Notes: generated by a model not told the origin, from the sequence alone. A stretch of DNA of 64,000 bases from an uncultured Candidatus Saccharibacteria bacterium (GCA_964434285.1 CAYSUJ010000001.1:168703-232702); one strand, 5' to 3'; counted from the first letter of the stretch, positions 10,317 through 37,154 are shown. Numbers and translations: made by a program.

Positions 10317-10337
10317 ACCTGCACTATACCAAAGTGG

Positions 10338-10697
10338 CTATCGTGGTAACGTGGGACCCACGAGAAGCTCCCGCCGGACCGGCTCGAAGAGGATGAGGAG
10401 TGCAAAAGCCGTCATGGTGGCAAGCGGCAACCCGTACAGTGAAAAAGAGAAGGTAGAATGCCACATAAAATCCAGCGCCACTCCGATCGGTACGACCTCC
10501 CATGCTCTAAAGCGGGCACAGAGCGCAAGTGCGATGAGGAGCGTCATCCACCACGGAAAAAAGAGAGCGGAAACGGCGCAGAGAGAAGAAAGAATGAGAC
10601 GCGTTTTATTGAACAACATAGACAAAACGGAGCGTATCGAGATTAGTTGGTGTACGAATGAAGAGCGTTGCGGCTGCACTCGACGATGCAGAGTCAA
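10338..10697 (-). CDS. mreD: rod shape-determining protein MreD (putative); true start probably MLFNKTRLIL around 10619
   Basis: Small polytopic membrane protein located between mreC and pbp2. Confidence 0.45.
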   Translation of the reverse strand: MTLHRRVQPQRSSFVHQLISIRSVLSMLFNKTRLILSSLCAVSALFFPWWMTLLIALALCARFRAWEVVPIGVALDFMWHSTFSFSLYGLPLATMTAFALLILFEPVRRELLVGPTLPR

Positions 10698-21357: not shown

Positions 21358-21429
21358 TTCCGCGGTAGCTCAATGGTAGAGCAGCTCGCTGTTAACGAGT
21401 TGGTTGTAGGTTCGAGTCCTACCCGCGGA
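21358..21429 (+). tRNA. tRNA-Asn (anticodon GUU)
   Basis: Acceptor TCCGCGG/CCGCGGA, D-arm GCTC-AATGGTA-GAGC, anticodon stem GCTCG/CGAGT with loop CT-GTT-AA, T-arm GTAGG-TTCGAGT-CCTAC, discriminator G; no CCA encoded. Confidence 0.85.
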
Positions 21430-22990
21430 GCACGACAGGATGAGAGGAGCCGAAAGGCTCCTTTTGTCCAATGTTTGCAACCCTTTTTCGCGGTTCTGAA
21501 ATCTTATTGAGCCTTGGCACCCAATTTGCCAAGAAATCGAACGCTAAAGTGTACTCCGGTTTGATCTCACGACCCTCAAGAGCGATGGTCGAGAATGCGT
21601 AACTCAACAACAGCCGCCGATCATCCGTCGTGGCGTCTTCGCTTTCGTAGATTTCCTTGGCGACGGATGCAAGTTCGTGTATCGCATATCCGGCTTCGTA
21701 GTATTTCCTGTTGCCTTTGTTGAGGCGTGCGATTTCATTGGTTGCATCTTCTTTCTGCGCACTGTATTGCTTGAAGAGACGGTCATACGTCTCGACGCTG
21801 ATCTTGCCGTCTAGCTTGTCTTCGTACAGCGCTTCGAGCCGGCGCTGGGATCGCTCAATCGTCATGTTCAATTCCGCAAGCTTTGAGTTGAAGCGTGCTA
21901 TCTCATCCACGTGGCTTTCTTTCAGCGCTTCATTCAGAACATCTAAGACACGCTTGTTCTTCGGTGCAACCTTGAGCAACATCGGGAGCAATTTCTCTTC
22001 CACCTTTTCCTGTCGGACGAAAACGTGACGTTGTTCGCATTTTTGATCCATTCCCGCACGCTTATAGCCGTTGCAATGACCGTACCAATGACCTTTCTGT
22101 CGTTCCCATGTGACGGAGCCGCCGCAAGTCGTGCAGCACATCTTCGCCTTGAATACCGGAATGTGTTTATTGAATTGCGGCTGGTTCAACGTGCGGCTGA
22201 GAAGTAGTTGTACGCGATCGAACAATTCGCGGCTGATGAGACCCTCATGCTTTGCCGGCATGACATCGCCCTTCCACCTGAGGGCGCCATAATAAAACGG
22301 ATCCCTAAGCAAGTCGTACATTCTGCTGCGGCCGACCTTCTTTCCCGCATGATTGCGCAAACCCTCGTCGTACATCGCTGCGGAGAGATTTACGACCGAG
22401 TAATTTCCAGAGGAGTACAACTCAAACATTTTCCTGAGAAACCGAGCCCGAGCCTCGTCGATTACATGGATTTTGTGCCCTTTCTCACCGATGGTCTTGT
22501 ATCCGAGCGGCGGTTTTGTCGGCAACCAGCCCTGCGCGATCTTTTCCTTCTGCCCCTTCTTCACTTCTTCGGAGAGGTTCGAGATATACTTTTTCGCGAG
22601 AACAATCTCGATATCCCAGCGAAACTTCTCGTCGGACTTCGCTTCCTTGTGAATGACCAGATTCTGTTTTACGAAATGAACTTTGCGTCGAGCGTCCGCC
22701 TCGATCCAATCATTGACGGCGACCGCATCTTTCATGTTGCGCGTAAGACGGTCTACCTTTTCACACAAAAGATTGCTGATCTGGTGCTTTTCCATGTAGC
22801 GCATCATCTCGTAGAAGACGGCACGCTGTTTCGATCCGCTAGCCGATTCGGAGATCGAAAACACCTTTACGATCTCGTACTGTTTTCGCGCCGCGTAGTC
22901 AGCGAGCAGCTTCTCCTGCGCCGGCAAAGAATATCCGGCCTCCTCTTGCTCCCGCGAACTCACACGTGCGTACACCAACGATTTCTCCAT
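21419..22990 (-). CDS. large serine recombinase (integrase): resolvase-type catalytic domain YARVSSREQ, recombinase domain, zinc-ribbon CxxC...C, coiled-coil tail
   Basis: The catalytic Ser motif lies in YARVSSREQ. The 523-aa length and Cys cluster (CCTTCGGS...HWYGHCNGY) are typical of large serine integrases. The stop overlaps the 3' end of tRNA-Asn. Confidence 0.85.
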   Translation of the reverse strand: MEKSLVYARVSSREQEEAGYSLPAQEKLLADYAARKQYEIVKVFSISESASGSKQRAVFYEMMRYMEKHQISNLLCEKVDRLTRNMKDAVAVNDWIEADARRKVHFVKQNLVIHKEAKSDEKFRWDIEIVLAKKYISNLSEEVKKGQKEKIAQGWLPTKPPLGYKTIGEKGHKIHVIDEARARFLRKMFELYSSGNYSVVNLSAAMYDEGLRNHAGKKVGRSRMYDLLRDPFYYGALRWKGDVMPAKHEGLISRELFDRVQLLLSRTLNQPQFNKHIPVFKAKMCCTTCGGSVTWERQKGHWYGHCNGYKRAGMDQKCEQRHVFVRQEKVEEKLLPMLLKVAPKNKRVLDVLNEALKESHVDEIARFNSKLAELNMTIERSQRRLEALYEDKLDGKISVETYDRLFKQYSAQKEDATNEIARLNKGNRKYYEAGYAIHELASVAKEIYESEDATTDDRRLLLSYAFSTIALEGREIKPEYTLAFDFLANWVPRLNKISEPRKRVANIGQKEPFGSSHPVVLRG

Positions 22991-24653: not shown

Positions 24654-24883
24654 GCCGGAATGCTACCTTTTCCGGCCCCTTAGCGGCAAGCGGGTAGCCT
24701 GCTACAATGCCCGTGTCGCTCACAGAGCGATTTGCCTAAACTCGTCGGAAACGGCGGGCATGGCAAAAAGACAGATCATGCCCAGAAACCCGTCACGGGG
24801 TTCGCATGATCTGCCGTATGGGGAAACCCATATGCCCGTGGCGGTTTTTTGCTGCCCGGATTTATAAAATTATTCGGGATAAC

Positions 24884-25339
24884 ATGGAACACAAACATAT
24901 TTGGGACAAGGTTCTCGGCTCTAACGAGCATGTGAAGTACGAATTTACGGTGGGATCGCAGTATCGAATGGTCGGTTTGGTCGGTTTATCAGTCATCGGT
25001 CTTTTGAGTTTCTTCTGGCTCTGGCAGATGGCGATATTCATTATTGCGATCGCCCTCTTTTATTACGGTTTCTACCTCAAAGCAGCGAACGCGTACGCGT
25101 TTACCGACCGCCGCGTACTGGTCCATCAAGGCTGGCTATCTACCCGCATGATCACGACGGAGTATCAAAAGATTACCGATGTGACAGTCCTCGAGCCTCT
25201 CATCCAGCGCCTTATATTCGCCTCAGGAACGCTTGTAGTGAACACGGCGGGCTCCAAGACCGAGGAGATCGTTCTCAGCAACGTCGAGCGCCCCTACGAG
25301 CTCAAGAAGAAGTTAGACGAGATGCGTGGGCACCACTAA
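24884..25339 (+). CDS. membrane-flanked bacterial PH-domain protein (bPH_2 / YdbS-YdbT-like)
   Basis: Two TM helices, then AYAFTDRRVLVHQGWLSTRMITTEYQKITDVTV.EPLIQRLIFASGTLVVNTAG, the typical bPH_2 pattern. ATG at 24884. Confidence 0.55.
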   Translation: MEHKHIWDKVLGSNEHVKYEFTVGSQYRMVGLVGLSVIGLLSFFWLWQMAIFIIAIALFYYGFYLKAANAYAFTDRRVLVHQGWLSTRMITTEYQKITDVTVLEPLIQRLIFASGTLVVNTAGSKTEEIVLSNVERPYELKKKLDEMRGHH

Positions 25340-25726: not shown

Positions 25727-25940
25727 ATGGGCACTTATATAGTTTCTTCGAAAATGTGGGAAAAGTAGACAAAAGTCAGACCCGAATCTCGTAAATACTG
25801 GACGTATCATGGGCACTTTTAGCACATCGGTACTTCTGGCGGAATGCGACTTTGGGCACCTTTTGTGGAGATCACTGCACCTAGTGCAGTAAGGTCTGTC
25901 ACTAGACTCAATCGTCTCCTCGTGGCACGCTGATGGGCAC
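25727..25940 (+). promoter_or_regulatory. four direct repeats of TGGGCAC(T/C) at 25727, 25810, 25853 and 25934 (the last overlaps the kinase ATG), plus the palindrome CTGCAC-cta-GTGCAG at 25875-25889
   Basis: Read directly: aTGGGCACTTatat, aTGGGCACTTttag, tTGGGCACCTtttg, gaTGGGCACCatg. Confidence 0.35.
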
Positions 25941-27942
25941 CATGCTTTCTGAAATCAACGGCTACAAAACTAAGCCCGAGTGGTTCATCGGCAAAGGCAC
26001 TTTTGGTTCTGTATACAAGGCTGAAAAGGACGGTAAATTTTACGCTATCAAAGTATTCCAGTCGGAATTACTGCAAACGGAATACAGGTCTCGTATTGAT
26101 CAGGAAATCAAAGCAATACAGAAGATTTCACACCCGAACGTCGTGAAGCTCCACGACTATGGCACGTTCAAGGAGAACGACTTTGAGTACTTCTACACAG
26201 TGATGGATTTAGTTGAGGGACAACCGTTGAGTGATTTTGTTGGCACAGTAAACGAAGAGCGTAGTATTGAAATTATTGAATCCATATTGGATACAAACAC
26301 TTCCGTGCATGCGACCGGCATCATCCATCGTGATCTGAAGCCTGCGAATATCATGATCGATAAAAGTGGAACGCCCATCATCCTTGATTTCGGACTTGCG
26401 AAACTGATCGATTACAGTTCGATTACACAAACCGGCGAACGTGTCGGCACGTACTATTACATGTCGCCGGAACAAGTGACTGACAGTAAAAATATTGACG
26501 AGCGATCGGATTACTTCGCAGTCGGTATTATTTTCTACGAAATGCTTACAGGCGTGACTCCATACGACGCGACAAATCTGCCGGCACTCATCGACCAGAT
26601 AAAGAACGTATACCCGAAAAATCCTTCGGAGCGAAACGCGAGCATCACTAATCAGACCGAGAATGTGATCCTGCGCTTGCTCGAAAAAGCACCTCATCGA
26701 CGATTTCAAAATACCGCCGATGTCGTAAACGCTCTCAAAGAGATTCCGGAGGAGCGGCCAAAGAAACTTGATCTTTCAACGCGATATTTTGTTCGTCTCC
26801 AACATACAGAAAAAACACTGTTCGAAGACGCACTGAAAGCCAACTTGATTGACCGCGTTATCTTTCCCGCAAATTTCTTCAAGTTCTATCACCACACCGT
26901 GGACGTGTTGCGGAATTCAAAGATCCCGTTCACCACTGATCCGGCCACAAACCGATTGACATACACCGCTTTCTCAAAAACAGCGGGCGTTCAGGAACTT
27001 CCTTATTCCTCCGGGGACGAGGTGACGCCGATACAAAAGAAACATTTCCACTCCATCACTCAGGTCCAAGAGTTCGTTGCAAAAGTAATCACATTTCAGA
27101 TAACGAACGGCGTTACCGAACTTGCCGCGCCTTTCTTTTTTGCAAAAGACTCCGATGATGACTGGTTTAGTATCGACCTGAAACTGCTCAAAGAAGCAAT
27201 CGCGTACCGCGACCAACACCATCCTGACATGCCAATCTGGGGAGGAATCTGCATGAATGTTGAGAATTGGCACGACGACGAAGAGAAGAACAAAATCCTG
27301 AACCACTATGTAAAAGCGGCTCCCGATGGCTTCTTTGTATACGGCGATCCGATCGGCAACCAATCGAACCTGACCCAGTTGTTCCACTACGGCGATCTCC
27401 TCAAAAAATTACAAGCATCGGCCCAAGTCCCGGTAATCGCTTGCCGTGTAAACGGTCTCGGTCTCATTTATTACAGCAACGGTGTTTCTGGTCTCTCATC
27501 AGGCATTGCCGCGCTCGATAACTTCCGAGAAGGAATTTTATCCGATACCCAAGACGGATATTCGATGGATCCTCGCTACTATGTTCCCGAACTTCTTACG
27601 ATGGTCTCGCTCAAAAAAGGCGTCACGACAAAACTCAAAGACCTTGCCAATTCCAGTGTCGGTAAGAACTTTTCCTGCAAATGCCCACATTGCAAAGGCA
27701 TCCTTACCTCCGCGTCACTCTCGACGCGAGCGATGAAATTGCACTTTTTACATGTGCGTCGTGCGGAATTGGCGGAACTAGAGGCGCTCAAGCCCGAGGA
27801 ACGCCTGGACCACATGGAAAAACGAGTTGCGCAGGCAATCAGCTACAGTAAAACCTTATCGAAGGAAAATATTGAGGTCGGTGATTTCTCGCATCTTGGC
27901 ATGTGGCTCACTCTGATCCAGCAATTCAAGAAGCATAGCTGA
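25933..27942 (+). CDS. eukaryotic-type Ser/Thr protein kinase domain (residues 1 to about 270) fused to a roughly 400-aa C-terminal domain of unknown function containing a CKCPHCKG zinc-knuckle-like motif
   Basis: Gly-loop GKGTFGSVY, VAIK-type YAIKVF, catalytic loop HRDLKPANIM, DFGLAK, SPE-like MSPEQ. The C-terminal 400 aa match nothing I recognise. Low-GC gene. Confidence 0.8.
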   Translation: MGTMLSEINGYKTKPEWFIGKGTFGSVYKAEKDGKFYAIKVFQSELLQTEYRSRIDQEIKAIQKISHPNVVKLHDYGTFKENDFEYFYTVMDLVEGQPLSDFVGTVNEERSIEIIESILDTNTSVHATGIIHRDLKPANIMIDKSGTPIILDFGLAKLIDYSSITQTGERVGTYYYMSPEQVTDSKNIDERSDYFAVGIIFYEMLTGVTPYDATNLPALIDQIKNVYPKNPSERNASITNQTENVILRLLEKAPHRRFQNTADVVNALKEIPEERPKKLDLSTRYFVRLQHTEKTLFEDALKANLIDRVIFPANFFKFYHHTVDVLRNSKIPFTTDPATNRLTYTAFSKTAGVQELPYSSGDEVTPIQKKHFHSITQVQEFVAKVITFQITNGVTELAAPFFFAKDSDDDWFSIDLKLLKEAIAYRDQHHPDMPIWGGICMNVENWHDDEEKNKILNHYVKAAPDGFFVYGDPIGNQSNLTQLFHYGDLLKKLQASAQVPVIACRVNGLGLIYYSNGVSGLSSGIAALDNFREGILSDTQDGYSMDPRYYVPELLTMVSLKKGVTTKLKDLANSSVGKNFSCKCPHCKGILTSASLSTRAMKLHFLHVRRAELAELEALKPEERLDHMEKRVAQAISYSKTLSKENIEVGDFSHLGMWLTLIQQFKKHS

Positions 27943-28618
27943 TGTACCTGTTCAACATCATCTCCTTAGCGTAGAGACTGACCGTGGTCTCGTAATTTTG
28001 GTTCACGGGTTGAGGATGTCGTATTTCAATTTCATTTGTCTTTTCGTCAAAAAGAATGAGCCCAATGTTGTGTCTATTGAATTCGTCAAAATCGATATTC
28101 TTTTCGGCTTCTTTTAGAATGGCAAGGTAACTCTCATCTGCAAAATATTGATAGCGACGAGCTTGAACCAAACCGCCGCGATGATCGTTCAACTTGACCT
28201 CAACAGCAATAATTTTTTGAATCGGGTTGAACGACTCTTCAATGGTCCGAATATATGCATCGTCAACTTTTGCGAGATATTCATTAGCAAGTAACACTCG
28301 TAGCTGCTTTTGCATATCCCTCGCATCACTGTTTGGAAATATTTCCAGTAGTTCACCGAAGGAATATATCCGCTCATTCTCCAAACCAAGCAACAATTGA
28401 AGACTACCAAAGCTGGTTAGTGGCGTACGATCAATGATTTTCTTTTTGAATGAGAAATCCGGCGCAAATACGAGATCAGCGATGCCGTAGCCTGCGGAGA
28501 ATTCATGAAACGCAAGATTGGTACCGAATTCTTTTTTCAGAATTCGATCAAGCTTATCAACGAGTGCCCTTTCGTTGCGCATGGTCGTAATGATAAGTGT
28601 AAATGATAAACGACGCAT
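27926..28618 (-). CDS. hypothetical protein with a possible restriction-endonuclease-like (PD-(D/E)XK) core: ...KVDD...(20 aa)...IIAVEVK...Q..RYQY
   Basis: The motif assignment is tentative. The 3' end overlaps the 3' end of the kinase gene by 17 nt in convergent orientation. Confidence 0.35.
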   Translation of the reverse strand: MRRLSFTLIITTMRNERALVDKLDRILKKEFGTNLAFHEFSAGYGIADLVFAPDFSFKKKIIDRTPLTSFGSLQLLLGLENERIYSFGELLEIFPNSDARDMQKQLRVLLANEYLAKVDDAYIRTIEESFNPIQKIIAVEVKLNDHRGGLVQARRYQYFADESYLAILKEAEKNIDFDEFNRHNIGLILFDEKTNEIEIRHPQPVNQNYETTVSLYAKEMMLNRYISYAS

Positions 28619-28651: not shown

Positions 28652-29164
28652 TCAGGGTTTTCTGGTCTTTATATACTCGCGGTATGCCAGCATACAACCC
28701 TCTGTAAATTCTTGTGGCCGCTCGTTCATCCATTTCTCCAGCTCCTCCGCTGGTATCCACCGAACTTCTGAGACTTCGTCGAGATCAGGATGTACTTCGC
28801 CATCATAAACACCTCTATAGACGCGATTAAAGCGTTTCTTGCCTCGCGCTTCATCGGTTTCCTCTTTGTAGTAATAGCCAATTTCCGTAAGCGGAACTCC
28901 TTCAACTCCGACTTCTTCTTTCAATTCACGATATGCAGCTTCTTCGTAAGTCTCTCCATGATCCACATGTCCGGCGGCCGATTGGTCCCACTTGTCAGGA
29001 TTAGAGAAGATATGCGGGCCTCGCTTCTGCATCAATACTTCTCCCTTTGAGTTGATCAAGAACACACGGGCTATTCGATGTCGGATACCTTTCTCAAGCG
29101 CCTCTTGTTTCGTACCGCCACCGAGGATATTATCGTTTTCGTCTACAAAGGTGATGTCTGTCAT
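28652..29164 (-). CDS. Nudix hydrolase
   Basis: Nudix box GHVDHGETYEEAAYRELKEEVGV (G-x5-E-x7-R-E-x2-E-E-x-G-U). Confidence 0.8.
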   Translation of the reverse strand: MTDITFVDENDNILGGGTKQEALEKGIRHRIARVFLINSKGEVLMQKRGPHIFSNPDKWDQSAAGHVDHGETYEEAAYRELKEEVGVEGVPLTEIGYYYKEETDEARGKKRFNRVYRGVYDGEVHPDLDEVSEVRWIPAEELEKWMNERPQEFTEGCMLAYREYIKTRKP

Positions 29165-29167
29165 ATA

Positions 29168-29773
29168 CTAAGCGCGAGAATTGAAAATAGCTTTTAATTC
29201 TGTTTTCTTTTGAGGATCGGCAAGTGCGGCAAGGATAAGAGGCACAACCTCACGCTCAGCGAAGTTGTCTTGTGTTCCGACCGCAAGAAACTCGTCGAAT
29301 GAGACCGGGTAGAGTTCGATCTTCTCACCTGCATCAGGATTCATGTCCGCGACTTTCTTCACCCCTTTTGCAATGAACGTGTATACAGCCCAATCAATCT
29401 TTCCAACTGGCTGTTGTGCATTCCACAAAACAAATTCTTCAGCTTCGTATCCCGTTTCTTCAAGCATCTCACGACGTGCCGCCTCGATCGGTTCTTCTCC
29501 ACTTTCCATGCGACCACCCGCACCGCCGATAAACGAGAGTTTACCCGGCTGTTCTTGTTTCGTGAGCAAGATCTTCCCATTGGGTAATACTGGAAATACG
29601 ATCACTGTGTCCGGACGTTTTACCTTTTCAAATGTCGCTTTCGTGCCATCAAACATCTCTTGCTCCCATTGGTACACATCGAAAAGCCTTCCCTTAAATG
29701 CGAGCTTGGCGTTCGAGGGGATTGGCTGCTTAGATTCTGGTCGCGGGATTTTCATATCACAGATTCGCATCAA
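29168..29773 (-). CDS. Nudix hydrolase, ADP-ribose pyrophosphatase-like
   Basis: Nudix box GGAGGRMESGEEPIEAARREMLEETGY, with an N-terminal extension resembling ADPRase (LFDVYQWEQ...). Confidence 0.75.
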   Translation of the reverse strand: MMRICDMKIPRPESKQPIPSNAKLAFKGRLFDVYQWEQEMFDGTKATFEKVKRPDTVIVFPVLPNGKILLTKQEQPGKLSFIGGAGGRMESGEEPIEAARREMLEETGYEAEEFVLWNAQQPVGKIDWAVYTFIAKGVKKVADMNPDAGEKIELYPVSFDEFLAVGTQDNFAEREVVPLILAALADPQKKTELKAIFNSRA

Positions 29774-30140
29774 GAAAGGCCTTTAGTGCTTTCAGGTCTC
29801 GTTTCTCTTGGTCGAAATGATACGACGATATGCCGACTGCTTCTGCGCTTTTGACGGCTGCCGGATTATGCTCGAAGTAGACCACATTGTCTGCAGTCAA
29901 GTTGAAGTGTTTTAGCATTTTCTCGAAGTATGCAGAGTCAGTCTTCTCCGGATCATGTTTGAGGGTAAAGACTTCGTATGGCATCTGATCGAGCCCGAAT
30001 TTCTTGAATTGTTCGTCGTTCGCCCCAGTGAGAATGATTTTCCGATTCGAGTACGCTTCCAACAGGTCGTACATCTTCTTGAAAATCTCTCCGGTATCCG
30101 AGACAAAGCAGTCTACCGCATCAACGAGGATGGTTTTCAT
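29757..30140 (-). CDS. HAD-superfamily hydrolase-like protein (small phosphatase)
   Basis: N-terminal ILVDAVDCF (DxD-type motif I) and a length/pattern typical of small HAD phosphatases; overlaps both flanking genes. Confidence 0.5.
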   Translation of the reverse strand: MKTILVDAVDCFVSDTGEIFKKMYDLLEAYSNRKIILTGANDEQFKKFGLDQMPYEVFTLKHDPEKTDSAYFEKMLKHFNLTADNVVYFEHNPAAVKSAEAVGISSYHFDQEKRDLKALKAFLDANL

Positions 30141-30949
30141 ACAACAAATGAATCAATCCACCTCAAGAAAATCTCTCTTATTTCGGCAAGATGTTTCGGA
30201 TCACGGAAGGTGTGCGGCGCATCTTTGATTATTTGCATTTCCTTTTGGCCAGGCAACGCATCGAACAATGCTTTCTGATGTTCGGGAGGCGTCGAATCAT
30301 CGACATCACCAACTATAAGAAGCACTGGCATAGTCAGATTTTCCACGTCCGGTAGAAGATCGTATTTCAAGCGATCAGTCATATGCGACCATTTAAGCCG
30401 CTTTATCCGCCCCGGTTCGCTGACACTTTCTTCCTCTCGCCAGCCGGTTCGCCCCCATTCATCAGCAACCTTCTTGTGTTTATCCGTCTGTGCGCTGAGT
30501 GCACCCGAAACAACTGTTGAGATTGGTGCAAGTGCCTGTACCTTTTCCGGATGCTTTTCTGCATAAAGCGCTGTTGAGATGCCGCCAAGACTGTGTCCAG
30601 CAAGTGCAAATGGCTCTTGGTACCACGACTGCGTTCCGGCCCACGCGATTACATCTTCAAGGTCTTCGTAATAGTTCGTAGTGGTCGCGTCGCTGTAATC
30701 GCCGTCGCTTTCGCCGAAGGTATTTGTCGTGTCAAAACGGATCGCGGTAAACCCTTTCTCAAGAAATGCGTGAGCGAAAGTCTCAATATGCGGCTGTTCC
30801 TTGAATCCTCCGAGGCCGTGCATTACAAAGGCTAATCCTTTCTGGTTGTCTGCCTTTTCGAGTATGATCGCCATTTTCTGCCCTTTTCGGTTTTGGATGA
30901 ACAGCTTTTCCATACCCGCCAGCATACCGTTTTCGGGATAAAGCGCCAA
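30137..30949 (-). CDS. alpha/beta-fold hydrolase
   Basis: HGLGG oxyanion region and nucleophile elbow LAGHSLGG (GxSxG), plus a C-terminal His region (DAPHTF). Confidence 0.75.
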   Translation of the reverse strand: MALYPENGMLAGMEKLFIQNRKGQKMAIILEKADNQKGLAFVMHGLGGFKEQPHIETFAHAFLEKGFTAIRFDTTNTFGESDGDYSDATTTNYYEDLEDVIAWAGTQSWYQEPFALAGHSLGGISTALYAEKHPEKVQALAPISTVVSGALSAQTDKHKKVADEWGRTGWREEESVSEPGRIKRLKWSHMTDRLKYDLLPDVENLTMPVLLIVGDVDDSTPPEHQKALFDALPGQKEMQIIKDAPHTFRDPKHLAEIREIFLRWIDSFVV

Positions 30950-30975
30950 TACGCTTTACTTGCTAGAATGGCTGC

Positions 30976-31545
30976 ATGGAAACAGAATATGAGGCGAAAT
31001 TTCTCAATGTTGACAAAGACGAAGTTCGGACACGATTGAAGACAGTCGGAGCAACGCTCAAGCGACCGGAATTCGCACAGCGCAGATGGGTTTTTGATTT
31101 ACCTTCCGCTATCCATTCAAGAAATGTTTTTGCTCGCGTGCGCGACGAGGGTGGTATTGTCACGATTACGTGGAAAGAATTCTCCGGTACCGAAGTTGAT
31201 CACCCAAAAGAAATCGAGATAATCGCCGACGATTTTGATAAGGCAGTGGCATTAGTAAAAGCACTCGGTTGCACTCCACGCTCCTATCAGGAAAACCGCC
31301 GCGAGCTTTGGCATCTCGATAATGCGAAAATCACGATTGATTCATGGCCATTCTTCGAACCGTTCGTGGAAGTCGAGGGTACTTCCGAGGAAGACATGAA
31401 GGAGGCATCGGAAAAGGCGGGTTTTGATTGGTCGCAAGCTCTCTTTTGCGGTGTGAGTAAGCTTTTTCAGAAACGATATGGCGAGCATGTCCATATCCGC
31501 GAAATGCCAAGGCTCACCTTTGATATGCCAAACCCATTCGTATAA
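30976..31545 (+). CDS. CYTH-domain protein (triphosphate tunnel metalloenzyme, CyaB / thiamine-triphosphatase class)
   Basis: N-terminal EYEAKF (the ExExK signature) and about 180 aa, the typical size of a stand-alone CYTH. Confidence 0.65.
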   Translation: METEYEAKFLNVDKDEVRTRLKTVGATLKRPEFAQRRWVFDLPSAIHSRNVFARVRDEGGIVTITWKEFSGTEVDHPKEIEIIADDFDKAVALVKALGCTPRSYQENRRELWHLDNAKITIDSWPFFEPFVEVEGTSEEDMKEASEKAGFDWSQALFCGVSKLFQKRYGEHVHIREMPRLTFDMPNPFV

Positions 31546-31816
31546 ATCTTCGCAAGTACAATCACCGGAAAAGCCCTGCGTTGCGACAAAATGCCCCTGT
31601 GCGCGATTAAACCGTCCTTCTCTAACTCAATGTTAAAAGTCCACGTATTTGGCGCGTTGCGACCTCTGGGTCAGGGAATGCTTTAGCCCAATCGTACGTT
31701 CTGAACGCAACCTGCCAAGCGAGCAAGGTGTTGGTGTGAAAGCGACCCATCCCCGTCCGAAAGGACGGGGATGGTCGTTTGTTGCCGTCGCAAGAGCATG
31801 GAAGTATGCTGCAGCG

Positions 31817-32260: not shown

Positions 32261-33920
32261 CTATTTCATTGCCTTATTTGAGATGCCGAAAAATCGGTCA
32301 AAGAAGCCTGTGAGCTTGTTGAGAACGGTCTCCCGCTTCTGTGAACGCTCGCCGCTCGCTGAGAAGCGAGACACCGGCGGCAACACCTTCGTGAGCGCTG
32401 TCCCCGTGGTAGCGACGGCACCATCTCGGAAGGCATTTTGGACGAACGCGTAGGTGGCGTCATGGTCAAGGTTCTCGTCCTTGATGATTTGATCCAGTTC
32501 TTCTATCTTTTTTTCCTCAACATACCTTTGCCAATCCTCGTCGACCACAGAATTCGCATCGAGTGACGAGATGAACTTATTGATGAGGTCTTTCTTGTTG
32601 CGCAGCTCGACACTCGAATCAATTGCTTTGTTGATGTCGATCAGGAGCTCTTTATTCTTGGTATGGTCTTCGTGGTACTTCTTGATGAGGGCGAGGATGT
32701 AATCGATATTTATCTCAATCTGCTTAATGAGCTCCATCTCGAACACCAGATCGTCGTTGATGTTTTCCTTTTCCTTGTCGAGGCTTGTGCGAAACTCGTT
32801 GTACAGATCGATGTACATGCTGTGGTAATCCTGTAAGTCTCTCGCGGAGAGTATTTCGTTCCCTACAAACTGATCGAAGGTCACCAAGATATTCCGCACA
32901 CGCAAGACAGCACCGTACAGTTTGATGAAGTCCTTCTGGTTCTGTTCACCCATGATGCGCTCGCCCACAGGGAACTTCGCCAAGAGCTCATCAACCAAGC
33001 TCTTATATCCGCGCACTTCCTTGTTGCGCTCTTTGTAGCCGTTGTAGTAATCCTCATACGCCTTAAGCAACACAATGCCGCTCGCTTCTTTGTCGCCAAA
33101 GAGCGCAATTGCTTCATTCGTCGCTTTCTCCAGGTTGCGGAAACAGACAATATTTCCAAAGGTTTTTATGCTGTTGAGGATGCGATTAGTTCGAGAATAT
33201 GCCTGCAGTAATCCATGGAGTCGCAGATTCTTGTCTACCCATAGGGTGTTGAGCGTCGTCGCATCAAAGCCCGTTAGAAACATGTTGACCACGATGAGGA
33301 TATCAACCTCGCGATTCTTCACGCGCTCGCTCACATCCTTGTAATAGTTCTGGAACTTGTCAGACGAGGTGTCATAAGACGTGCCGAACATTTCGTTGTA
33401 GTCGGTAATGGCGCTCTCCAAGAAGTCCCGCGAGCTCGCATCAAGCCCGCTGGTGTCTTCGGAGTTTTCATCGATCATTCCGTCAGCATCCTCATCATTA
33501 ACCCCGAAGCTGAAGATCGTTGCAATCTTTAATTTCTTGTCACTCGGCACCTCTGCAAGCTGTTTTTTGAACTCCGCATAATATTTCTTAGCGACATCAA
33601 TGGAAGATACGGCGAAGATTGAATTGAAGCCCGCGAGCCGTCGATCTTTCAGCTTGTAAAAGCTATTGCGCTTCGTCTTTTGGTCGAAGTGTTCACGTAT
33701 ATAGCGCACGATATTCTCGAGTCGTTCCGGTGAGGCGAGAGCAGCTTCACGATCGATACCACTCACTTGTTTGTCCTCTATGTCTTCCGCTTCACGGATG
33801 GTGGAGACGTAATCTACCTTGAAAGGCAGCACATTTTTATCCGCGATGGCGTCCACAATCGTGTACGTGTGGAGTTTGGTGCTGACCCGAGTCCCAAATC
33901 TTAGACACGCTTTCTAGCGA
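32261..33920 (-). pseudogene. hsdR: type I restriction enzyme R subunit (HsdR), C-terminal roughly 550 aa only; the reading frame stays open upstream past the GTG at 33856 until it hits a stop at the IS3 border
   Basis: Helicase motif VI region ...VNMFLTGFDATTLNTLWVDKNLRLHGLLQAYSRTNR plus the HsdR C-terminal domain; no N-terminal nuclease or helicase motifs I-III; the IS3 element abuts its 5' side. Confidence 0.7.
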
Positions 33921-33950
33921 CACCATTATTCGCTAGCATACGTACCACGT

Positions 33951-34205
33951 ATGAAAAAGCATCGCATAGCTCCTGAGGTAAAGGAGCAGATTATCAATCG
34001 CATCAAAAACGAGGGGGTCTCGGTGCAACAGGCTGCCACAGAACATGGCGTCACGACATCCACAATATACGCCTGGATCGGGGCGAAGGTGGAAGGAGGT
34101 CCGTCAGTGATGGAGATCGCGAAACTCCGAAGGGAGAACGAAGAGCTCCTCAAGATGATCGGGATCCTCACCATGAAGCTCAGCGAGTCCCAAAAAAAGA
34201 AGTAG
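33951..34205 (+). CDS. IS3 family transposase OrfA (HTH)
   Basis: See the mobile_element entry. Confidence 0.8.
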   Translation: MKKHRIAPEVKEQIINRIKNEGVSVQQAATEHGVTTSTIYAWIGAKVEGGPSVMEIAKLRRENEELLKMIGILTMKLSESQKKK

Positions 34206-34210
34206 CACGC

Positions 34211-35020
34211 ATGGACGCACTCACAAAGAGTGCGCGCGCAAAGCTTGTCGGTGTTTCTCGTGCCTCGCTCTACTACTACCACAAGATGGAGGACAAGGAT
34301 CACGCGCTCAGGCGTGATATTGAGGGTGTCTTGCGTACCCGCGCAGGGAGAAGCTACGGATACCGCCGTATAGCCGTCGCACTCCGCATCAACGAAAAGC
34401 GCGCACGCAGAGTCATGCGCAAGTTTGGCCTGAAGCCGTACCGAAGACGAGGCAAGAGATACTGCAGAGCAAAGCCGCAGAATGAAGTGTATCCGAACCT
34501 TCTTCAGTTGGTCACACCAGCGTATCCTGGCTGTGTCTGGGTTGCAGACTTTACCCATCTCAACTACCGAGGCATTGATGTATCGGTGGCCACGGTGCTC
34601 GATGTGTACTTGAGGAAGATTGTCGGCATCGCGGTGGGCACGAAGCACGGCGCGCCGCTCATTACAAGCGCCTTTGGCAACGCACTCCTCGCACACGGGA
34701 GACCGGCCATCTTCCACTCAGACAATGGTAGCGAGTATCATGCCGCATCGTTTCGCATGCTCCTTGTGAACCTCGACATCGCCATCTCATGCTCGAAGAA
34801 GGGCTGCCCGTGGGAGAATGGGTATCAAGAGAGTTTCTACGACAAGTTCAAGAACGATCTTGGCGACCCTTCACGCTTCAACTCACTGGGTGAACTCACT
34901 GCGGCAATCTACGAGACCATGCACGTCTACAATACCGAGCGCATTCATTCTGCGCTCAAGATGCCGCCACATCAATTTGCACTCGCGCACGCCGCTGCTA
35001 CACTACACACACGTCATTAG
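34211..35020 (+). CDS. IS3 family transposase OrfB (DDE integrase core), expressed as an OrfAB fusion by a -1 frameshift
   Basis: DDE motifs D(FTHL)...D(NGSEY)...E(NGYQES). Confidence 0.85.
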   Translation: MDALTKSARAKLVGVSRASLYYYHKMEDKDHALRRDIEGVLRTRAGRSYGYRRIAVALRINEKRARRVMRKFGLKPYRRRGKRYCRAKPQNEVYPNLLQLVTPAYPGCVWVADFTHLNYRGIDVSVATVLDVYLRKIVGIAVGTKHGAPLITSAFGNALLAHGRPAIFHSDNGSEYHAASFRMLLVNLDIAISCSKKGCPWENGYQESFYDKFKNDLGDPSRFNSLGELTAAIYETMHVYNTERIHSALKMPPHQFALAHAAATLHTRH

Positions 35021-35120: not shown

Positions 35121-35642
35121 TTATCGTGGAGTGGAGCTCATAATAGGAGTACTATTTTTCGTGCGAAGAAATTCTTGCATAGCGTTCAAAAAACCATGAG
35201 TGAATCTTTCCGGATCGGTGTTCAAAGACGCGATGACATTCGATACCGCCATCTTCTCAAGTGATTTAACTTCCTCGGTTTCCATAAATTTCCATCCCAC
35301 AGGAGCCATAGCCTCGTAAATAGCCCAGAAGTGGTTGAAGCGAGCATTTTCTGGCAGGAACGTGGAGACGTGCTTGATTGGAACGTCTAACCTTATTTCC
35401 TCAAACATCTCCCTCCGCGCCGCATCATCATACGATTCTCCCTTTCCGACATGCCCGCCGACTGCGAGATCGTACTTGCCGTACTTGTTGCTCGTTTGAA
35501 CGTAAAGGCTTCCGTCCGCATCAAAAACAAAAACCCCGACAATACGGTGCATGAGTTTTAGTTCGTGCGCCGTCGTCGCATCAGTCGTCCCGATCACGTT
35601 ATTGTTTTCGTCGACGATATCAATCTGCTCGGAATCAGCCAT
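35121..35642 (-). CDS. Nudix hydrolase, paralog of the 28652..29164 gene
   Basis: Nudix box GGHVGKGESYDDAARREMFEEIRL; N-terminus IVDENNNVIG versus VDENDNILG, and C-terminus FTHGFLNAMQEFLRTK versus FTEGCMLAYREYIKTRK, in the paralog. Confidence 0.8.
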   Translation of the reverse strand: MADSEQIDIVDENNNVIGTTDATTAHELKLMHRIVGVFVFDADGSLYVQTSNKYGKYDLAVGGHVGKGESYDDAARREMFEEIRLDVPIKHVSTFLPENARFNHFWAIYEAMAPVGWKFMETEEVKSLEKMAVSNVIASLNTDPERFTHGFLNAMQEFLRTKNSTPIMSSTPR

Positions 35643-35648
35643 ACACTT

Positions 35649-37154
35649 TTATCGGAATTTTGTCTCGCGCTTGTGAGCCCTCCATTCGCGTGCGTGTTCG
35701 TCATGTTGGGCGGTGATATCGGACACAATCTTCAATTCACTCGCGTAGCTCGCCTTGAGGTTCCGAAATTCCGGATCCTTAAAAAGTTCTGGTTCGTTCG
35801 TAACCGCGTATACTGGGTCTATATGCCTCAACTTCACAGAAACTTCTTCGCCGATTGTCGCATCCTCTACAACACCGAGTTTGCGCATCAACTCTCTATT
35901 CCCCGCAGTGACTGACAACCTGAACTCGCGTTCGTTCAATTGATGTTTCAGATCGTTTCGGAGTATCTTTTTTCTCGACAATGCGGCATACGTACGCAAG
36001 TTATTCGTTCGGAGATACTGACGCATAAATTTCGGAAACATCGAGAGGAGCGGCGGGATCTCGGTCGGAGGCTTCACCCGACTGCTTGAAAATAACGTGT
36101 CGTACCATAGCTTCTCGAATTCCTGCGTCTGTTCGGTATGGAAATCGACTGGTTTCTGACCCCAATCAAGCATTTCCTCTGAGAACGCAATACTCATGCG
36201 GGCACAGAGCTCACGCAGCAACTCCTCCGGCGCGGCTCGTACATCAGTCGTATCGAACACGATATGTGATTTGCCTGTTGATTCAAGATACGCTACTTCC
36301 TCTGCAAGTTTCTTGAACTCCTCCTTCTCAAAATTCATCCGGCGCGGATTTGCTTTCAACACGCCCTCAAAAAACGCATAATCGCGCTCGGCGTACAATT
36401 TTCTGTCGACAAGATCCCGCCAGTTTATATATCCGTTCCTGCGAGCCATGAAGTCCAATAATTCGTTCTGTACAGTCATGACGGGTGTATCTTGTAGACG
36501 TTCAAGATTCTCTCCGTTGTGCAGAAAGTCGAGCGGTTCGGTGTAAGTCCCGCTCTGCACAGCGTCCGAGAACGCTACCCAGTTTGAAAAACCTTTCTCA
36601 GCCGCAGCATAATCGAGTAAATATCGCTGGAGATCGATGCTTGAGCGCATGTCAATCGTCGTCAACACGCGCCGTATCCGAGACTCGACGGACAATAGCG
36701 GGTTGCGTATCAGCACGACCACGGGATTGTGCGTGAGTTCGATTAACCGCACGTATTCTTTGTTCTTTCCGATCCAATGAGACATCTCCTTCACGGCTAC
36801 ACTTGTCCTTTCTCCGGACTGCTCGAATTGTTCTCCGCCGATTGATTCGTAAATTTGCTTATAGCCGTGATCGGGATCGAAATCGTCCCGCCGCGCGCCA
36901 AGAAACGGCTCGTGGCATTCATGTTGTATATCGGACGAATTGCCGACGACGTGCTCAATGAGGGAAGAATTTGTCCTGGGCGGCGCAATGATAATATGTA
37001 TCGAAAGCCGCCCGTCGCTAACGAGTTTCTGCAACTTTTCGTAGTATGAACCATTGCTCATGAGAAGAATGATAGCCGAGTTATCTGCATCCTCAAAGCC
37101 GTGAAAAACGTGGTTGAAAGCGGGTAATGCTCTCAACCACGAATTGCCGTTCAA
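35649..37154 (-). CDS. sulfotransferase-fold-like N-terminal domain (IIAPPRTNSSLI as a PAPS 5'-phosphosulfate-binding-like motif; IRNPLLSVESRIRR as a 3'-phosphate-binding-like R-N-P...S motif) plus a roughly 250-aa unknown C-terminal domain
   Basis: Motif-level resemblance only. A 4-nt ATGA overlap with the upstream kinase-like gene suggests translational coupling. Confidence 0.35.
   Translation of the reverse strand: MNGNSWLRALPAFNHVFHGFEDADNSAIILLMSNGSYYEKLQKLVSDGRLSIHIIIAPPRTNSSLIEHVVGNSSDIQHECHEPFLGARRDDFDPDHGYKQIYESIGGEQFEQSGERTSVAVKEMSHWIGKNKEYVRLIELTHNPVVVLIRNPLLSVESRIRRVLTTIDMRSSIDLQRYLLDYAAAEKGFSNWVAFSDAVQSGTYTEPLDFLHNGENLERLQDTPVMTVQNELLDFMARRNGYINWRDLVDRKLYAERDYAFFEGVLKANPRRMNFEKEEFKKLAEEVAYLESTGKSHIVFDTTDVRAAPEELLRELCARMSIAFSEEMLDWGQKPVDFHTEQTQEFEKLWYDTLFSSSRVKPPTEIPPLLSMFPKFMRQYLRTNNLRTYAALSRKKILRNDLKHQLNEREFRLSVTAGNRELMRKLGVVEDATIGEEVSVKLRHIDPVYAVTNEPELFKDPEFRNLKASYASELKIVSDITAQHDEHAREWRAHKRETKFR

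What the first reader, a model, noticed from the sequence alone, without database searches (positions are those of the whole stretch)
28652..31545. Overlapping four-gene operon (alpha/beta hydrolase, HAD, Nudix, Nudix) divergent from a CYTH triphosphate-tunnel gene
Four minus-strand genes are packed with overlapping or near-zero spacing (30140/30137, 29773/29757, 29168/29164), so they are almost certainly co-transcribed. A CYTH gene carrying the ExExK motif (EYEAKF) is transcribed divergently, 27 bp away. CYTH enzymes make or cleave tripolyphosphate/nucleotide species. One Nudix looks ADP-ribose-pyrophosphatase-like, the HAD protein is a small phosphatase and the last gene is a serine hydrolase. 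This co-localised set could synthesise or degrade a nucleotide-derived second messenger, or ADP-ribose-type signals used or countered in phage defence. It sits in a horizontally acquired island rather than with housekeeping genes.
Basis: inference. Interest (0 to 1): 0.65.

Follow-up and report, generated by a model that had tools for sequence, protein, structure and literature searches.

The report
Lineage-specific hydrolase gene cluster in CPR bacterium
Five small hydrolase genes sit together in a mobile-looking region of a Patescibacteria (CPR) genome, but each is common in these bacteria and usually found apart from the others, so this looks like ordinary metabolite clean-up or salvage rather than a signalling or anti-phage system.

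Summary
The ORFs are real and at the stated coordinates. Four tightly packed minus-strand genes encode an alpha/beta hydrolase (ABH), a capless HAD-like protein, a NudF/ADPRase-like Nudix (NudixB) and a YfcD-like Nudix (NudixA). A CYTH gene with ExExK runs divergently. The window is from a Patescibacteria (CPR) genome. The block lies in a ~17-kb variable region that starts at tRNA-Asn plus a large serine integrase and holds an IS3 and a truncated HsdR.

- 80 genomes with a CYTH orthologue: HAD nearby in 0, NudixB 1, NudixA-like 2, ABH 2. Relatives at 73-77% identity also have other neighbours.
- 66 distinct HAD loci: Nudix adjacent in 9, ABH in 6. This is 8-12x over background but a minority.
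- Only ABH-HAD-NudixB recurs as a unit, once (L092).

The CYTH protein is a triphosphatase type, not a class IV cyclase: no HF motif, both Arg kept, ExE kept, and its closest structures are archaeal TTMs. PADLOC gives no defence assignment and the genes are essentially absent from viral contigs.

Verdict: a lineage-specific cluster of known hydrolase families, most likely nucleotide and metabolite housecleaning or salvage. The one mildly unusual item is the very conserved HAD-like family that lacks the Asp+2 general acid.

The parts
28652..29164 (-). NudixA: YfcD-like Nudix hydrolase, 170 aa, last gene of the four-gene run
   Evidence: Pfam NUDIX 1.5e-24. Canonical Nudix box GHVDHGETYEEAAYRELKEEVGV at residue 65. 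Closest solved protein is E. coli YfcD 2fkb, 5.3e-14. NCBIfam YfcD gives 80.9 bits, below the cutoff of 152. Absent from L092.
29168..29773 (-). NudixB: NudF/ADP-ribose-pyrophosphatase-like Nudix hydrolase (195-201 aa depending on the start)
   Evidence: Pfam NUDIX 3.5e-14. Nudix box GRMESGEEPIEAARREMLEETGY at residue 87. PDB hits: NudF 5c7q 5.2e-14, plus ADPRases 8wv3 and 1v8i. Large CPR family, 2058 hits at E<=1e-10.
29757..30140 (-). Capless HAD-like protein, 127 aa. D7 nucleophile, T38, K66 and E90-H91 are present; there is no Asp at +2.
   Evidence: Sub-threshold HAD_2/Hydrolase and HAD-IA hits. AF2 pLDDT 97.8. Foldseek top hits are all HAD superfamily. Motif conservation. 3386 hits in the 90% database but only 214 clusters at 50% identity.
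30137..30949 (-). Alpha/beta-fold serine hydrolase (esterase type), first gene of the run. The likely true start is ATG 30913 (258 aa).
   Evidence: Pfam Hydrolase_4 2.5e-18 and Abhydrolase_1 8.3e-14. GHSLG at residue 118, GDVDD at 214, PHTF at 245. PDB: MHETase-like and cinnamoyl esterases, 8e-17 to 1e-14. Homology to L092 starts at 30914.
30976..31545 (+). CYTH / triphosphate tunnel metalloenzyme, 189 aa, phosphohydrolase type, divergent from the run
   Evidence: Pfam CYTH 35.3 bits, above GA 23.2. E4/E6/K8, R54/R56 and E132/E134 are conserved. PDB profile hit to SaTTM 7ns8, 6.9e-13. AF2 pLDDT 96.6 with Foldseek top hits to archaeal TTMs.
30914..30975 (.). Divergent intergenic region between ABH and CYTH, 62 bp if ABH starts at 30913. 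It presumably holds both promoters.
   Evidence: Sequence. The consensus promoter scan found nothing here above shuffled expectation.
27926..28618 (-). 230-aa ORF of unknown family, 33 nt downstream of NudixA on the same strand. Possibly a fifth cistron.
   Evidence: ORF. No hit in Pfam, NCBIfam, PADLOC, PHROGs or PDB. No homologue in the loci fetched up to (L001-L165).
31747..31774 (+). GC-rich 12-bp-stem hairpin with a T-rich tail about 200 nt after the CYTH stop codon. Candidate CYTH terminator.
   Evidence: Terminator-like site. It lies inside the TTG-started 201-aa ORF, whose Pfam-matching part begins only at residue 67.
21359..22990 (.). tRNA-Asn (21359-21431, +) abutting a large serine integrase (21419-22990, -). 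Probable left edge of the variable island that holds the cluster.
   Evidence: ARAGORN and Rfam tRNA. Pfam Resolvase + Recombinase + Zn_ribbon_recom. phrog_95 integrase 3.8e-72. Housekeeping genes upstream.
32261..35020 (.). Truncated type I restriction R subunit (32261-33856, -) next to IS3 orfA/orfB (33951-35020, +). Island cargo and decay.
   Evidence: PADLOC REase_I matches model positions 437-972 of 976 only. Pfam EcoR124_C and T1R_D3-like; HTH_Tnp_1 and rve.

Best explanation
This is a lineage-specific juxtaposition of five small hydrolase genes inside an integrase-bounded variable region of a Patescibacteria (CPR) genome.

Shown:
- The three families searched in the protein databases (CYTH, HAD-like, NudixB) are large and CPR-wide; ABH and NudixA relatives also recur in the fetched CPR loci. 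All five are usually encoded apart from the others.
- The only unit conserved as a block is the three-gene cassette ABH - HAD-like - NudixB.
- NudixA and the divergent CYTH gene are neighbours by local history.

Inferred mechanism: metabolite and nucleotide housecleaning or salvage, not signal synthesis.
- NudixB cleaves the pyrophosphate bond of ADP-ribose or a related ADP-X compound.
- The ABH esterase and the HAD-like protein act on the same or a related metabolite, by de-esterification and by phosphoryl removal or transfer. Their genes are moderately but significantly enriched next to each other across CPR.
- NudixA (YfcD-like) hydrolyses another nucleoside diphosphate derivative.
- The CYTH enzyme independently hydrolyses a triphosphate (PPPi, NTP or a thiamine-triphosphate-like compound) by the two-metal TTM mechanism. 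It does not make cyclic nucleotides.
For: Taxon and distribution:
- CYTH homologues are named Minisyncoccia or Uhrbacteria.
- 464 of 599 candidate stretches in species-representative genomes encode a relative, and most record titles name Patescibacteria lineages.

No five-gene synteny:
- In 80 CYTH-orthologue loci with +-10 kb flanks: HAD 0, NudixB 1, NudixA-like 2, ABH 2.
- CYTH relatives at 73-77% identity have other neighbours.
- Recurrent CYTH neighbours are UvrB, UvrA, UvrC and a class I aaRS.
- NudixB orthologues sampled on long contigs: 0 of 4 have HAD or ABH adjacent.

Partial linkage around HAD, in 66 distinct HAD loci:
- A Nudix-box neighbour in 9 of 110 flanking ORFs against 13 of 1334 in the background, p=1.5e-6.
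- An ABH neighbour in 6 of 110 against 6 of 1334, p=1.2e-5, with 5 of the 6 directly upstream on the same strand.

Cassette: L092 has ABH-HAD-NudixB at 76-80% aa identity with 4-nt overlaps and unrelated flanks. DNA homology to the window spans exactly 29205-30914.

CYTH type:
- There is no room for the HF motif, because only 3 residues precede ExExK.
- R54, R56, E132 and E134 are invariant. The rules are from Vogt et al. 2021, PMC8233210.
- YpCyaB differs at exactly these positions.
- Fold neighbours are SaTTM and the Pyrococcus TTMs.

Not defence or phage: PADLOC gives only weak generic hits, and viral contigs are essentially negative.

A thematically similar cluster occurs in a relative: Nudix-NudixB-Ham1-IMPase-Nudix in L169.
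Against: - No biochemical or expression data exist; every substrate is inferred from family resemblance.
The closest genome-collection CYTH relatives were just 45-56% identical, so sampling of very near relatives is thin (L092 and the loci).
- The cluster does lie among defence-flavoured cargo: a truncated type I R-M system and a Ser/Thr kinase whose kinase domain matches PD-T4-6 models.
- The HAD-like protein lacks the Asp+2 general acid and has His where motif IV normally has Asp. A simple phosphatase step is therefore not assured.
- The significant HAD-Nudix and HAD-ABH enrichment shows that part of the cluster is more than random. A specific pathway may exist that 'housecleaning' describes only loosely.
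Confidence: 0.62

Rival explanations
1. ABH - HAD-like - NudixB is a dedicated, mobile three-gene pathway cassette. For example, it could process O-acyl-ADP-ribose, ADP-ribose or another esterified ADP-sugar: esterase, then pyrophosphatase, then a phosphoryl-handling step. It would move between CPR genomes as a unit. This is compatible with, but more specific than, the best explanation.
For: - L092 carries the same three genes in the same order, with overlapping stop and start codons and unrelated flanks. DNA homology ends exactly at the cassette borders.
- HAD is enriched next to Nudix (8x) and ABH (12x) across CPR.
- NudixB is closest to the NudF ADPRases.
- In the window the cassette lies in an integrase/IS-bearing island.
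Against: - The full trio was seen in only 1 of 66 distinct HAD loci.
- In 5 of the 6 loci with a NudixB orthologue adjacent (4 of 5 distinct), the order is NudixB-HAD, the reverse of the window.
- NudixB orthologues sampled from their own side had no HAD or ABH neighbour, 0 of 4.
- No fusion of the HAD-like domain to Nudix or ABH was found.
- The substrates are pure inference.
Confidence: 0.22
2. The five genes form a nucleotide-signal module: CYTH makes or cleaves a triphosphate-derived messenger, and the Nudix, HAD and ABH enzymes degrade ADP-ribose or cyclic-nucleotide signals. The module would be used in, or against, anti-phage defence.
For: - The island also carries a truncated type I R-M system, an IS3, and a Ser/Thr kinase that matches PD-T4-6 kinase models.
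- One Nudix is ADPRase-like.
- NudixA has a weak hit to the PADLOC candidate family PDC-S07, 2.3e-09.
Against: - The block is not conserved.
- The CYTH fails all three class IV cyclase motifs, and in other CPR genomes it sits among uvr and aaRS genes.
- ABH and CYTH have no PADLOC hit. The Nudix hit is a generic Nudix-domain match, and the kinase hits cover only the generic kinase domain, which also matches PknB at 1.4e-62.
- The HAD family is absent from viral contigs and CYTH is found on 3.
- All three families searched in the protein databases (CYTH, HAD-like, NudixB) are large, strongly conserved CPR families. That pattern is typical of core metabolism, not of fast-evolving conflict systems.
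Confidence: 0.06
3. Pure coincidence. The five genes are unrelated cargo that accumulated side by side in a recombination hotspot, with no functional relation among any of them.
For: - Island context with integrase, IS3 and a pseudogenised HsdR.
- The genome is so compact that near-zero spacing is the default.
- CYTH and NudixA show no recurrent linkage to the rest.
Against: - HAD-Nudix and HAD-ABH adjacency is significantly enriched over background in independent CPR loci.
- The trio recurs intact in L092.
Confidence: 0.1

Closest known systems
Archaeal triphosphate tunnel metalloenzymes (SaTTM/Saci_0718, PDB 7ns8-7nsf; Pyrococcus PH1012 2dc4 and Pfu-838710 1yem)
   Same: - Eight-strand CYTH tunnel fold: Foldseek TM 0.67-0.78, E about 1e-9 to 1e-10.
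- Profile hit 6.9e-13.
- ExExK, the xRxR arginines and the C-terminal ExE metal site are all conserved.
- SaTTM is an experimentally shown triphosphatase that makes no cyclic nucleotides (PMC8233210).
   Different: - Only about 20% identity.
- The CPR family has an aromatic residue (W or F) where SaTTM has Ala54, and Arg37 where SaTTM has Asp38 of its DxY motif.
- It is bacterial (CPR) rather than archaeal.
- Its substrate is untested.
Class IV (CyaB-type) adenylate cyclase, e.g. Yersinia pestis CyaB 3n0y/2fjt
   Same: Same CYTH fold (TM about 0.7). JGI annotation pipelines label the family 'adenylate cyclase class 2/IV'.
   Different: - Lacks the HFxxxxExExK extension.
- Keeps the first Arg of xRxR (YpCyaB has Val).
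- Keeps ExE (YpCyaB has ExA).
- NCBIfam cyaB TIGR00318 gives 32 bits against a cutoff of 57.95.
NudF/ADP-ribose pyrophosphatase family (Bdellovibrio NudF 5c7q, T. thermophilus ADPRase 1v8i, E. coli NudE 1vhg)
   Same: NudixB has a canonical Nudix box plus the N-terminal extension that aligns with NudF over residues 23-158, E 5e-14.
   Different: Below the NCBIfam NudE equivalog cutoff, 49.9 against 169 bits. Substrate unknown. It forms its own large CPR clade at 63-83% identity.
E. coli YfcD / D. radiodurans DR_0079 / IDI-like Nudix subfamily
   Same: NudixA aligns over its full length with YfcD 2fkb at 5.3e-14, and more weakly with IDI and DR_0079.
   Different: It has a canonical hydrolase Nudix box, so it is a hydrolase and not an IPP isomerase. 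It is below both the YfcD and IDI equivalog cutoffs. YfcD itself has no established physiological substrate (my knowledge).
Capless (C0) HAD phosphatases: MDP-1 1u7p, HisB-N 2fpr, KDN-9-P phosphatase 4hgo
   Same: Rossmannoid HAD core. The Asp nucleophile ends strand 1, Thr ends strand 2, Lys precedes the helix before strand 4, and an acidic residue ends strand 4.
   Different: - No Asp at +2; the position is a variable hydrophobic residue.
- His91 sits where motif IV normally has the Mg-binding Asp.
- Only 127 aa.
- Pfam HAD models score below gathering.
- TM to any solved HAD is only 0.55-0.7.
Nucleotide-signal defence and anti-defence systems (CBASS, Pycsar, Thoeris; phage signal-degrading enzymes)
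   Same: Only thematic: the presence of Nudix and ADPR-type hydrolases, and a location in an island.
   Different: No cyclase, TIR, SIR2 or effector component. No meaningful match to PADLOC models. No conserved operon. Not carried by viral contigs.

Membership tests
CYTH / TTM superfamily (PF01928) | Pfam model above gathering score; N-terminal ExExK; basic tunnel residues; C-terminal ExE; eight-strand tunnel fold | tested here: met
   35.3 bits against GA 23.2. E4, E6, R37, R54, R56, K67, R109, E132 and E134 are invariant in 36 sequences; K8 is K in 29 and T in 7. AF2 pLDDT 96.6 with TTM fold hits.
Class IV adenylate cyclase (CyaB) | HF motif four residues before ExExK (HFxxxxExExK), per Vogt et al. 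2021 | tested here: not met
   Only 3 residues (MET) precede E4 in the window protein and in 32 of 36 family members in all; none has HF. Rule.
Class IV adenylate cyclase (CyaB) | First Arg of the xRxR motif replaced by a small residue, and the second Glu of ExE replaced by Ala | tested here: not met
   R54 and E134 are invariant. YpCyaB shows V and A at the aligned positions. NCBIfam cyaB gives 32 bits against a cutoff of 57.95.
Thiamine triphosphatase (ThTPase) subfamily | W/YxRxR motif (aromatic residue that stacks the thiazolium) and orthology to animal ThTPase | tested here: inconclusive
   At the aromatic position the window protein has F52. Across the family the counts are W 17, F 16, Y 1 and L 2 of 36. 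ThTPases are not sequence hits even at E<=10 and rank below the archaeal TTMs by fold.
Nudix hydrolase superfamily | Nudix box Gx5Ex7REUxEExGU | tested here: met
   NudixA has GHVDHGETYEEAAYRELKEEVGV and NudixB has GRMESGEEPIEAARREMLEETGY. Pfam is above GA for both.
ADP-ribose pyrophosphatase (NudF/NudE equivalogs) | Equivalog-level HMM score; ADPRase activity | tested here: not met
   NCBIfam NudE gives 49.9 bits against a cutoff of 169. The PDB resemblance to NudF at 5e-14 is family-level only. Activity cannot be tested here.
HAD superfamily phosphatase | Rossmannoid HAD fold with motif I Asp nucleophile, motif II Thr/Ser and motif III Lys | tested here: met
   AF2 pLDDT 97.8. All top Foldseek hits are HAD superfamily. 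D7, T/S38 and K66 are conserved at the canonical strand ends.
HAD superfamily phosphatase | Asp at +2 of motif I (general acid/base) and the acidic Asp of motif IV (Mg ligand) | tested here: not met
   The +2 position is Val, Ile, Leu, Ala and similar. Motif IV is [E/D]-H. Pfam HAD_2 and Hydrolase score below gathering.
Alpha/beta-hydrolase serine esterases | GxSxG nucleophile elbow plus Asp and His of the triad; Pfam model above GA | tested here: met
   GHSLG at 118, GDVDD at 214, PHTF at 245. Hydrolase_4 gives 66.7 bits against 27. Esterase structures score 8e-17.
Conserved five-gene operon or gene neighbourhood | The same genes linked in independent genomes | tested here: not met
   Of 80 CYTH loci, 0-2 have any partner nearby. 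The full trio occurs in 1 of 66 distinct HAD loci, and no locus has all five. 0 of 4 NudixB loci have HAD or ABH adjacent.
Known anti-phage defence systems (PADLOC-DB v2) | Match to a defence-system protein model | tested here: not met
   ABH and CYTH have no hit. The Nudix proteins have only weak PDC-S07 hits (2.3e-09 and 8.3e-05), and HAD scores 0.0024 against PDC-M47B.
Integrated genomic island | Integrase at a tRNA gene, mobile-element genes, compositional shift, flanking att repeats | tested here: inconclusive
   Met: tRNA-Asn plus a large serine integrase, an IS3, and lower GC. No direct repeat of 16 nt or more was found, which is expected for serine integrases. The right boundary is undefined.

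The most novel reading that the evidence does not exclude
The 127-aa capless HAD-like protein defines a CPR-centred enzyme family that is unusually conserved, with about 79% mean column identity among the close homologues. It has a non-canonical active site: the Asp nucleophile is kept, there is no Asp+2 general acid, and His replaces the motif IV Asp. In this reading it works together with an ADPRase-like Nudix and an esterase as a mobile three-gene cassette, which would carry out a so-far undescribed step in ADP-ribose or nucleotide-sugar salvage in these host-dependent bacteria.
Probability: 0.18. Interest if true: 0.45.

Novelty: new member of a known kind. Interest (0 to 1): 0.2.

Why it matters
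The practical value is mostly negative. A cluster of Nudix, HAD, ABH and CYTH genes in an island invites a "nucleotide-signal defence" reading. Here that reading fails a direct synteny test and a motif-level test of the CYTH enzyme.

The analysis also shows that "class 2/IV adenylate cyclase" labels on CPR CYTH proteins are probably wrong; these look like triphosphatases.

The modest positive lead is that CPR bacteria depend on scavenged nucleotides and cofactors. A very conserved, atypical HAD-like protein that is statistically linked to Nudix and esterase genes could mark an uncharacterised salvage or damage-control step.

Tried and rejected
- **Island boundaries.** I searched 20.5-45 kb for att-type direct repeats and found nothing of 16 nt or more that was meaningful.
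- **Transcription signals.** Sigma-70 promoter and intrinsic terminator scans of 27.5-32.5 kb found no more sites than shuffled sequence gives. Only the hairpin at 31747-31774 is notable.
- **Domain fusions.** I looked for fusions of the HAD-like domain to Nudix or ABH. The partners were unannotated, or looked like gene-call artefacts (ribosomal L22, aaRS fragments, a flavin reductase); none was a Nudix or ABH.
- **Viral carriage.** HAD gave 0 loci and CYTH gave 3.
- **PADLOC.** No convincing defence assignment.
- **The 230-aa ORF.** No match in Pfam, NCBIfam, PADLOC, PHROGs or PDB sequences.
- **Literature.** Searches for CPR/Patescibacteria with Nudix or CYTH found nothing relevant.
- **IPP isomerase for NudixA.** Considered and rejected, because the protein has a canonical hydrolase Nudix box and scores below the IDI cutoff.
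- **Class IV cyclase for CYTH.** Considered and rejected, because it fails all three diagnostic motifs.

Full report
**1. Observation**

- On the minus strand: 30137-30949 (270 aa), 29757-30140 (127 aa), 29168-29773 (201 aa) and 28652-29164 (170 aa). The junctions are a 4-nt overlap, a 17-nt overlap and a 3-nt gap.
- On the plus strand: 30976-31545 (189 aa), beginning METEYEAKF.

Pfam and NCBIfam assign the following:
- Alpha/beta hydrolase: Hydrolase_4 2.5e-18.
- A weak, sub-threshold HAD-IA C-terminal match.
- Two NUDIX domains: 3.5e-14 and 1.5e-24.
- CYTH: 35.3 bits against GA 23.2.

Regex checks confirm two canonical Nudix boxes and the GHSLG, GDVDD and PHTF esterase motifs.

Small corrections:
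- The conserved ABH start is probably ATG 30913, because homology to the closest relative starts there. The divergent spacer is then about 62 bp.
- A 230-aa ORF without any family match (27926-28618) follows NudixA after 33 nt and may be co-transcribed.
- Near-zero spacing is normal here: 19 of 39 same-strand pairs have gaps of 10 bp or less.

**2. Organism and context**

The CYTH and HAD proteins occur identically on a 405-kb NCBI contig and on two Logan contigs that are 100% identical to the window. Named homologues are Minisyncoccia, Uhrbacteria, Yanofskybacteria, Paceibacterota and similar. The window is therefore from a Patescibacteria (CPR) genome.

Upstream, at 8-20 kb, are housekeeping genes: PBP2, two MreB copies, a class II aaRS, RseP and Fmt.

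At 21359-21431 a tRNA-Asn abuts a large serine integrase. The evidence is Pfam Resolvase + Recombinase + Zn ribbon and phrog_95 at 3.8e-72.

The next ~17 kb contains, in order:
- a LOOT RNA hit and a bPH_2 membrane protein;
- a 669-aa Ser/Thr kinase and the 230-aa orphan;
- the four-gene run and CYTH;
- a NOV_C-like ORF;
- the C-terminal 55% of a type I HsdR, next to an IS3;
- a third Nudix with a sulfotransferase-like and a guanylate-kinase-like gene.

A Cu-ATPase follows. GC is 0.43-0.50 across 23-34 kb, except for one higher 1-kb bin over the IS3, against 0.51-0.57 upstream. However, no att repeat was found and there are no phage structural genes.

**3. Synteny test from the CYTH side**

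In the 80 best loci (45-56% identity, +-10 kb), tblastn with the window's proteins gave these counts:
- HAD: 0.
- NudixB: 1.
- NudixA-like: 2.
- ABH: 2.

Closer relatives at 73-77% identity on long contigs have quite different neighbours: a 156-aa hypothetical protein, DUF1697, BipA and a methyltransferase.

Clustering all flanking ORFs shows that the recurrent CYTH neighbours are UvrB, UvrA, UvrC and a class I aaRS. That is a housekeeping context.

**4. Synteny test from the HAD and NudixB sides**

The HAD-like protein has 3386 hits at E<=1e-3 in the 90%-clustered database, and the 120 listed are 70-81% identical to it.

80 metagenome loci were fetched, of which 66 are distinct after de-duplication. 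Findings:
- A NudixB orthologue (48-76% identity) is adjacent in 5 distinct loci, mostly in the opposite order to the window.
- Counting any Nudix-box ORF, 9 of 110 immediate neighbours qualify, against 13 of 1334 ORFs in the CYTH-locus background. That is about 8-fold enrichment, binomial p=1.5e-6.
- ABH-family neighbours number 6 of 110 against 6 of 1334, about 12-fold, p=1.2e-5. Five of the six are directly upstream on the same strand.
- A distant CYTH paralogue (32% identity) lies upstream of HAD in one distinct locus.

Only L092 has ABH-HAD-NudixB together. There the proteins are 76-80% identical to the window's, both junctions overlap by 4 nt, and the flanks are unrelated. Nucleotide homology to the window covers exactly 29205-30914. 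L092 has neither NudixA nor CYTH.

From the NudixB side (2058 hits at E<=1e-10), four orthologues on long contigs had no HAD or ABH neighbour. One sits in a Nudix-NudixB-Ham1-IMPase-Nudix cluster and another lies between IleRS and RecO.

Conclusion: the five-gene block is not a conserved unit. A three-gene cassette exists in at least one relative. HAD shows a real but minority association (about 9-14% of loci each) with Nudix and ABH genes.

**5. What kind of CYTH**

Vogt et al. 2021 (PMC8233210) showed that SaTTM is a triphosphatase that makes no cyclic nucleotides. They also gave three motifs that separate class IV cyclases from TTMs and ThTPases:
- an HF motif four residues before ExExK;
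- replacement of the first Arg of xRxR by a small residue;
- ExA instead of ExE.

The window protein and its family have only three residues before ExExK, and have invariant R54, R56, E132 and E134. YpCyaB differs at exactly these aligned positions.

The best PDB sequence hits are SaTTM (6.9e-13) and the Pyrococcus TTMs, with the cyclases only at 3e-4. The AF2 model (pLDDT 96.6) matches the same archaeal TTMs best, ahead of ThTPase and the cyclases.

So the protein is predicted to hydrolyse a triphosphate, not to synthesise a messenger. One peculiarity is the position that is W/Y in ThTPases and Ala in SaTTM: it is aromatic in 34 of 36 family members (F in the window protein). This hints at an organic triphosphate substrate. 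ThTPase orthology is not supported.

**6. The other proteins**

- **NudixB** is closest to the NudF ADPRases (5c7q, 5e-14) but is below the NudE equivalog cutoff.
- **NudixA** is closest to YfcD (5e-14), with a canonical hydrolase box.
- **ABH** resembles MHETase-like and cinnamoyl/feruloyl esterases.
- **The HAD-like protein** folds with very high confidence (pLDDT 97.8) into a capless HAD core, and every top Foldseek hit is a HAD-superfamily member.
  - D7, T/S38, K66 and [E/D]90 sit at the canonical motif positions.
  - The Asp+2 general acid is replaced by a variable hydrophobic residue, and His91 replaces the motif IV Asp.
  - The family is compact, with 214 clusters at 50% identity.
  - Its domain fusions are uninformative.

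**7. Defence or counter-defence**

- PADLOC gives no hit for ABH, CYTH or the 230-aa ORF.
- The Nudix proteins get only weak generic hits to a candidate family.
- The kinase matches PD-T4-6 models through its generic kinase domain only, and that domain also matches PknB.
- The HAD family is absent from IMG/VR and the CYTH family occurs on three contigs.

Nothing supports a role in phage conflict beyond the location in an island.

**8. Verdict**

The functional-module interpretation is not supported.

The most likely picture is a lineage-specific cluster of known hydrolase families:
- a co-transcribed ABH-HAD-like-NudixB cassette, plus a YfcD-like Nudix;
- placed next to an independent triphosphatase-type CYTH gene;
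- serving nucleotide and metabolite housecleaning or salvage in a scavenging CPR bacterium.

The substrates and the chemistry of the atypical HAD-like protein remain inferred. Interest is low (0.2). The only lead worth a follow-up is the atypical HAD-like family and its statistical link to Nudix and esterase genes.

Noticed in passing
window 24733-24845 (+): Rfam LOOT RNA (RF03000) hit at 69.8 bits (gathering 46.4). It overlaps the predicted start of the bPH_2 membrane-protein ORF 24806-25339, inside the island.
   Followed up: no
window 21359-22990: tRNA-Asn directly abutting, and overlapping by 13 nt, the stop of a 523-aa phage-type large serine integrase. It marks the probable left edge of a ~17-kb island. 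No att repeat was found and the right edge is undefined.
   Followed up: partly
window 32261-35020: A type I restriction R subunit is present only as its C-terminal ~55% (PADLOC model positions 437-972 of 976), next to an IS3 (orfA/orfB). It looks like a pseudogenised R-M system, and no N-terminal part lies beyond the IS.
   Followed up: partly
window 35121-37738 (-): A second tight three-gene run: a YfcD-like Nudix paralogue with a slightly degenerate box (EEIRL), a 501-aa protein with a weak Sulfotransfer_5 match, and a guanylate-kinase-like P-loop protein. This is another nucleotide-related cluster of unknown function in the same island.
   Followed up: no
window 25933-27942 (+): A 669-aa Ser/Thr kinase with a ~390-aa C-terminal region that has no family match. 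The kinase domain hits PADLOC PD-T4-6 and mad6 models (3.8e-69) but equally PknB-type kinases, so a defence role is not established.
   Followed up: partly
window 31546-31816 (hairpin 31747-31774): About 270 nt after CYTH there is a 12-bp GC-rich hairpin with a T-rich tail. The 201-aa ORF annotated here probably starts at ATG 31817 (145 aa, NOV_C-like). Rfam has no hit in this gap.
   Followed up: partly
L034, L078 and four other CYTH loci (CYTH at about 10001-10573): In 6 of 80 CPR genomes the CYTH orthologue sits directly upstream of uvrA, and UvrB is a recurrent upstream neighbour. In three of these genomes uvrC follows. This suggests a possible link between this triphosphatase and nucleotide excision repair operons in some lineages.
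   Followed up: partly
L169 2176-5294: A relative's NudixB orthologue (78% identity) lies in a run of Nudix - NudixB - Ham1/ITPase - inositol-monophosphatase-family - Nudix. This is a different but thematically similar 'housecleaning' cluster.
   Followed up: no
window 29757-30140 and family alignment A3: The HAD-like family is extremely conserved (79% mean column identity among close homologues) yet lacks the Asp+2 general acid and has His in motif IV. Only 214 clusters at 50% identity exist among 1.84 billion representatives.
   Followed up: partly
window 5855-5925 (+): ARAGORN calls a tRNA-Pro(GGG) here, but Rfam's tRNA model does not report it at gathering score. It also lies inside overlapping ORFs, so it is possibly a false positive.
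   Followed up: no
L086/L087 5276-6381: A distant CYTH paralogue (32% identity to the window's) lies 264 bp upstream of a HAD-like orthologue on the same strand. This is the only other CYTH-HAD proximity seen, and L086 and L087 are duplicates of one locus.
   Followed up: no
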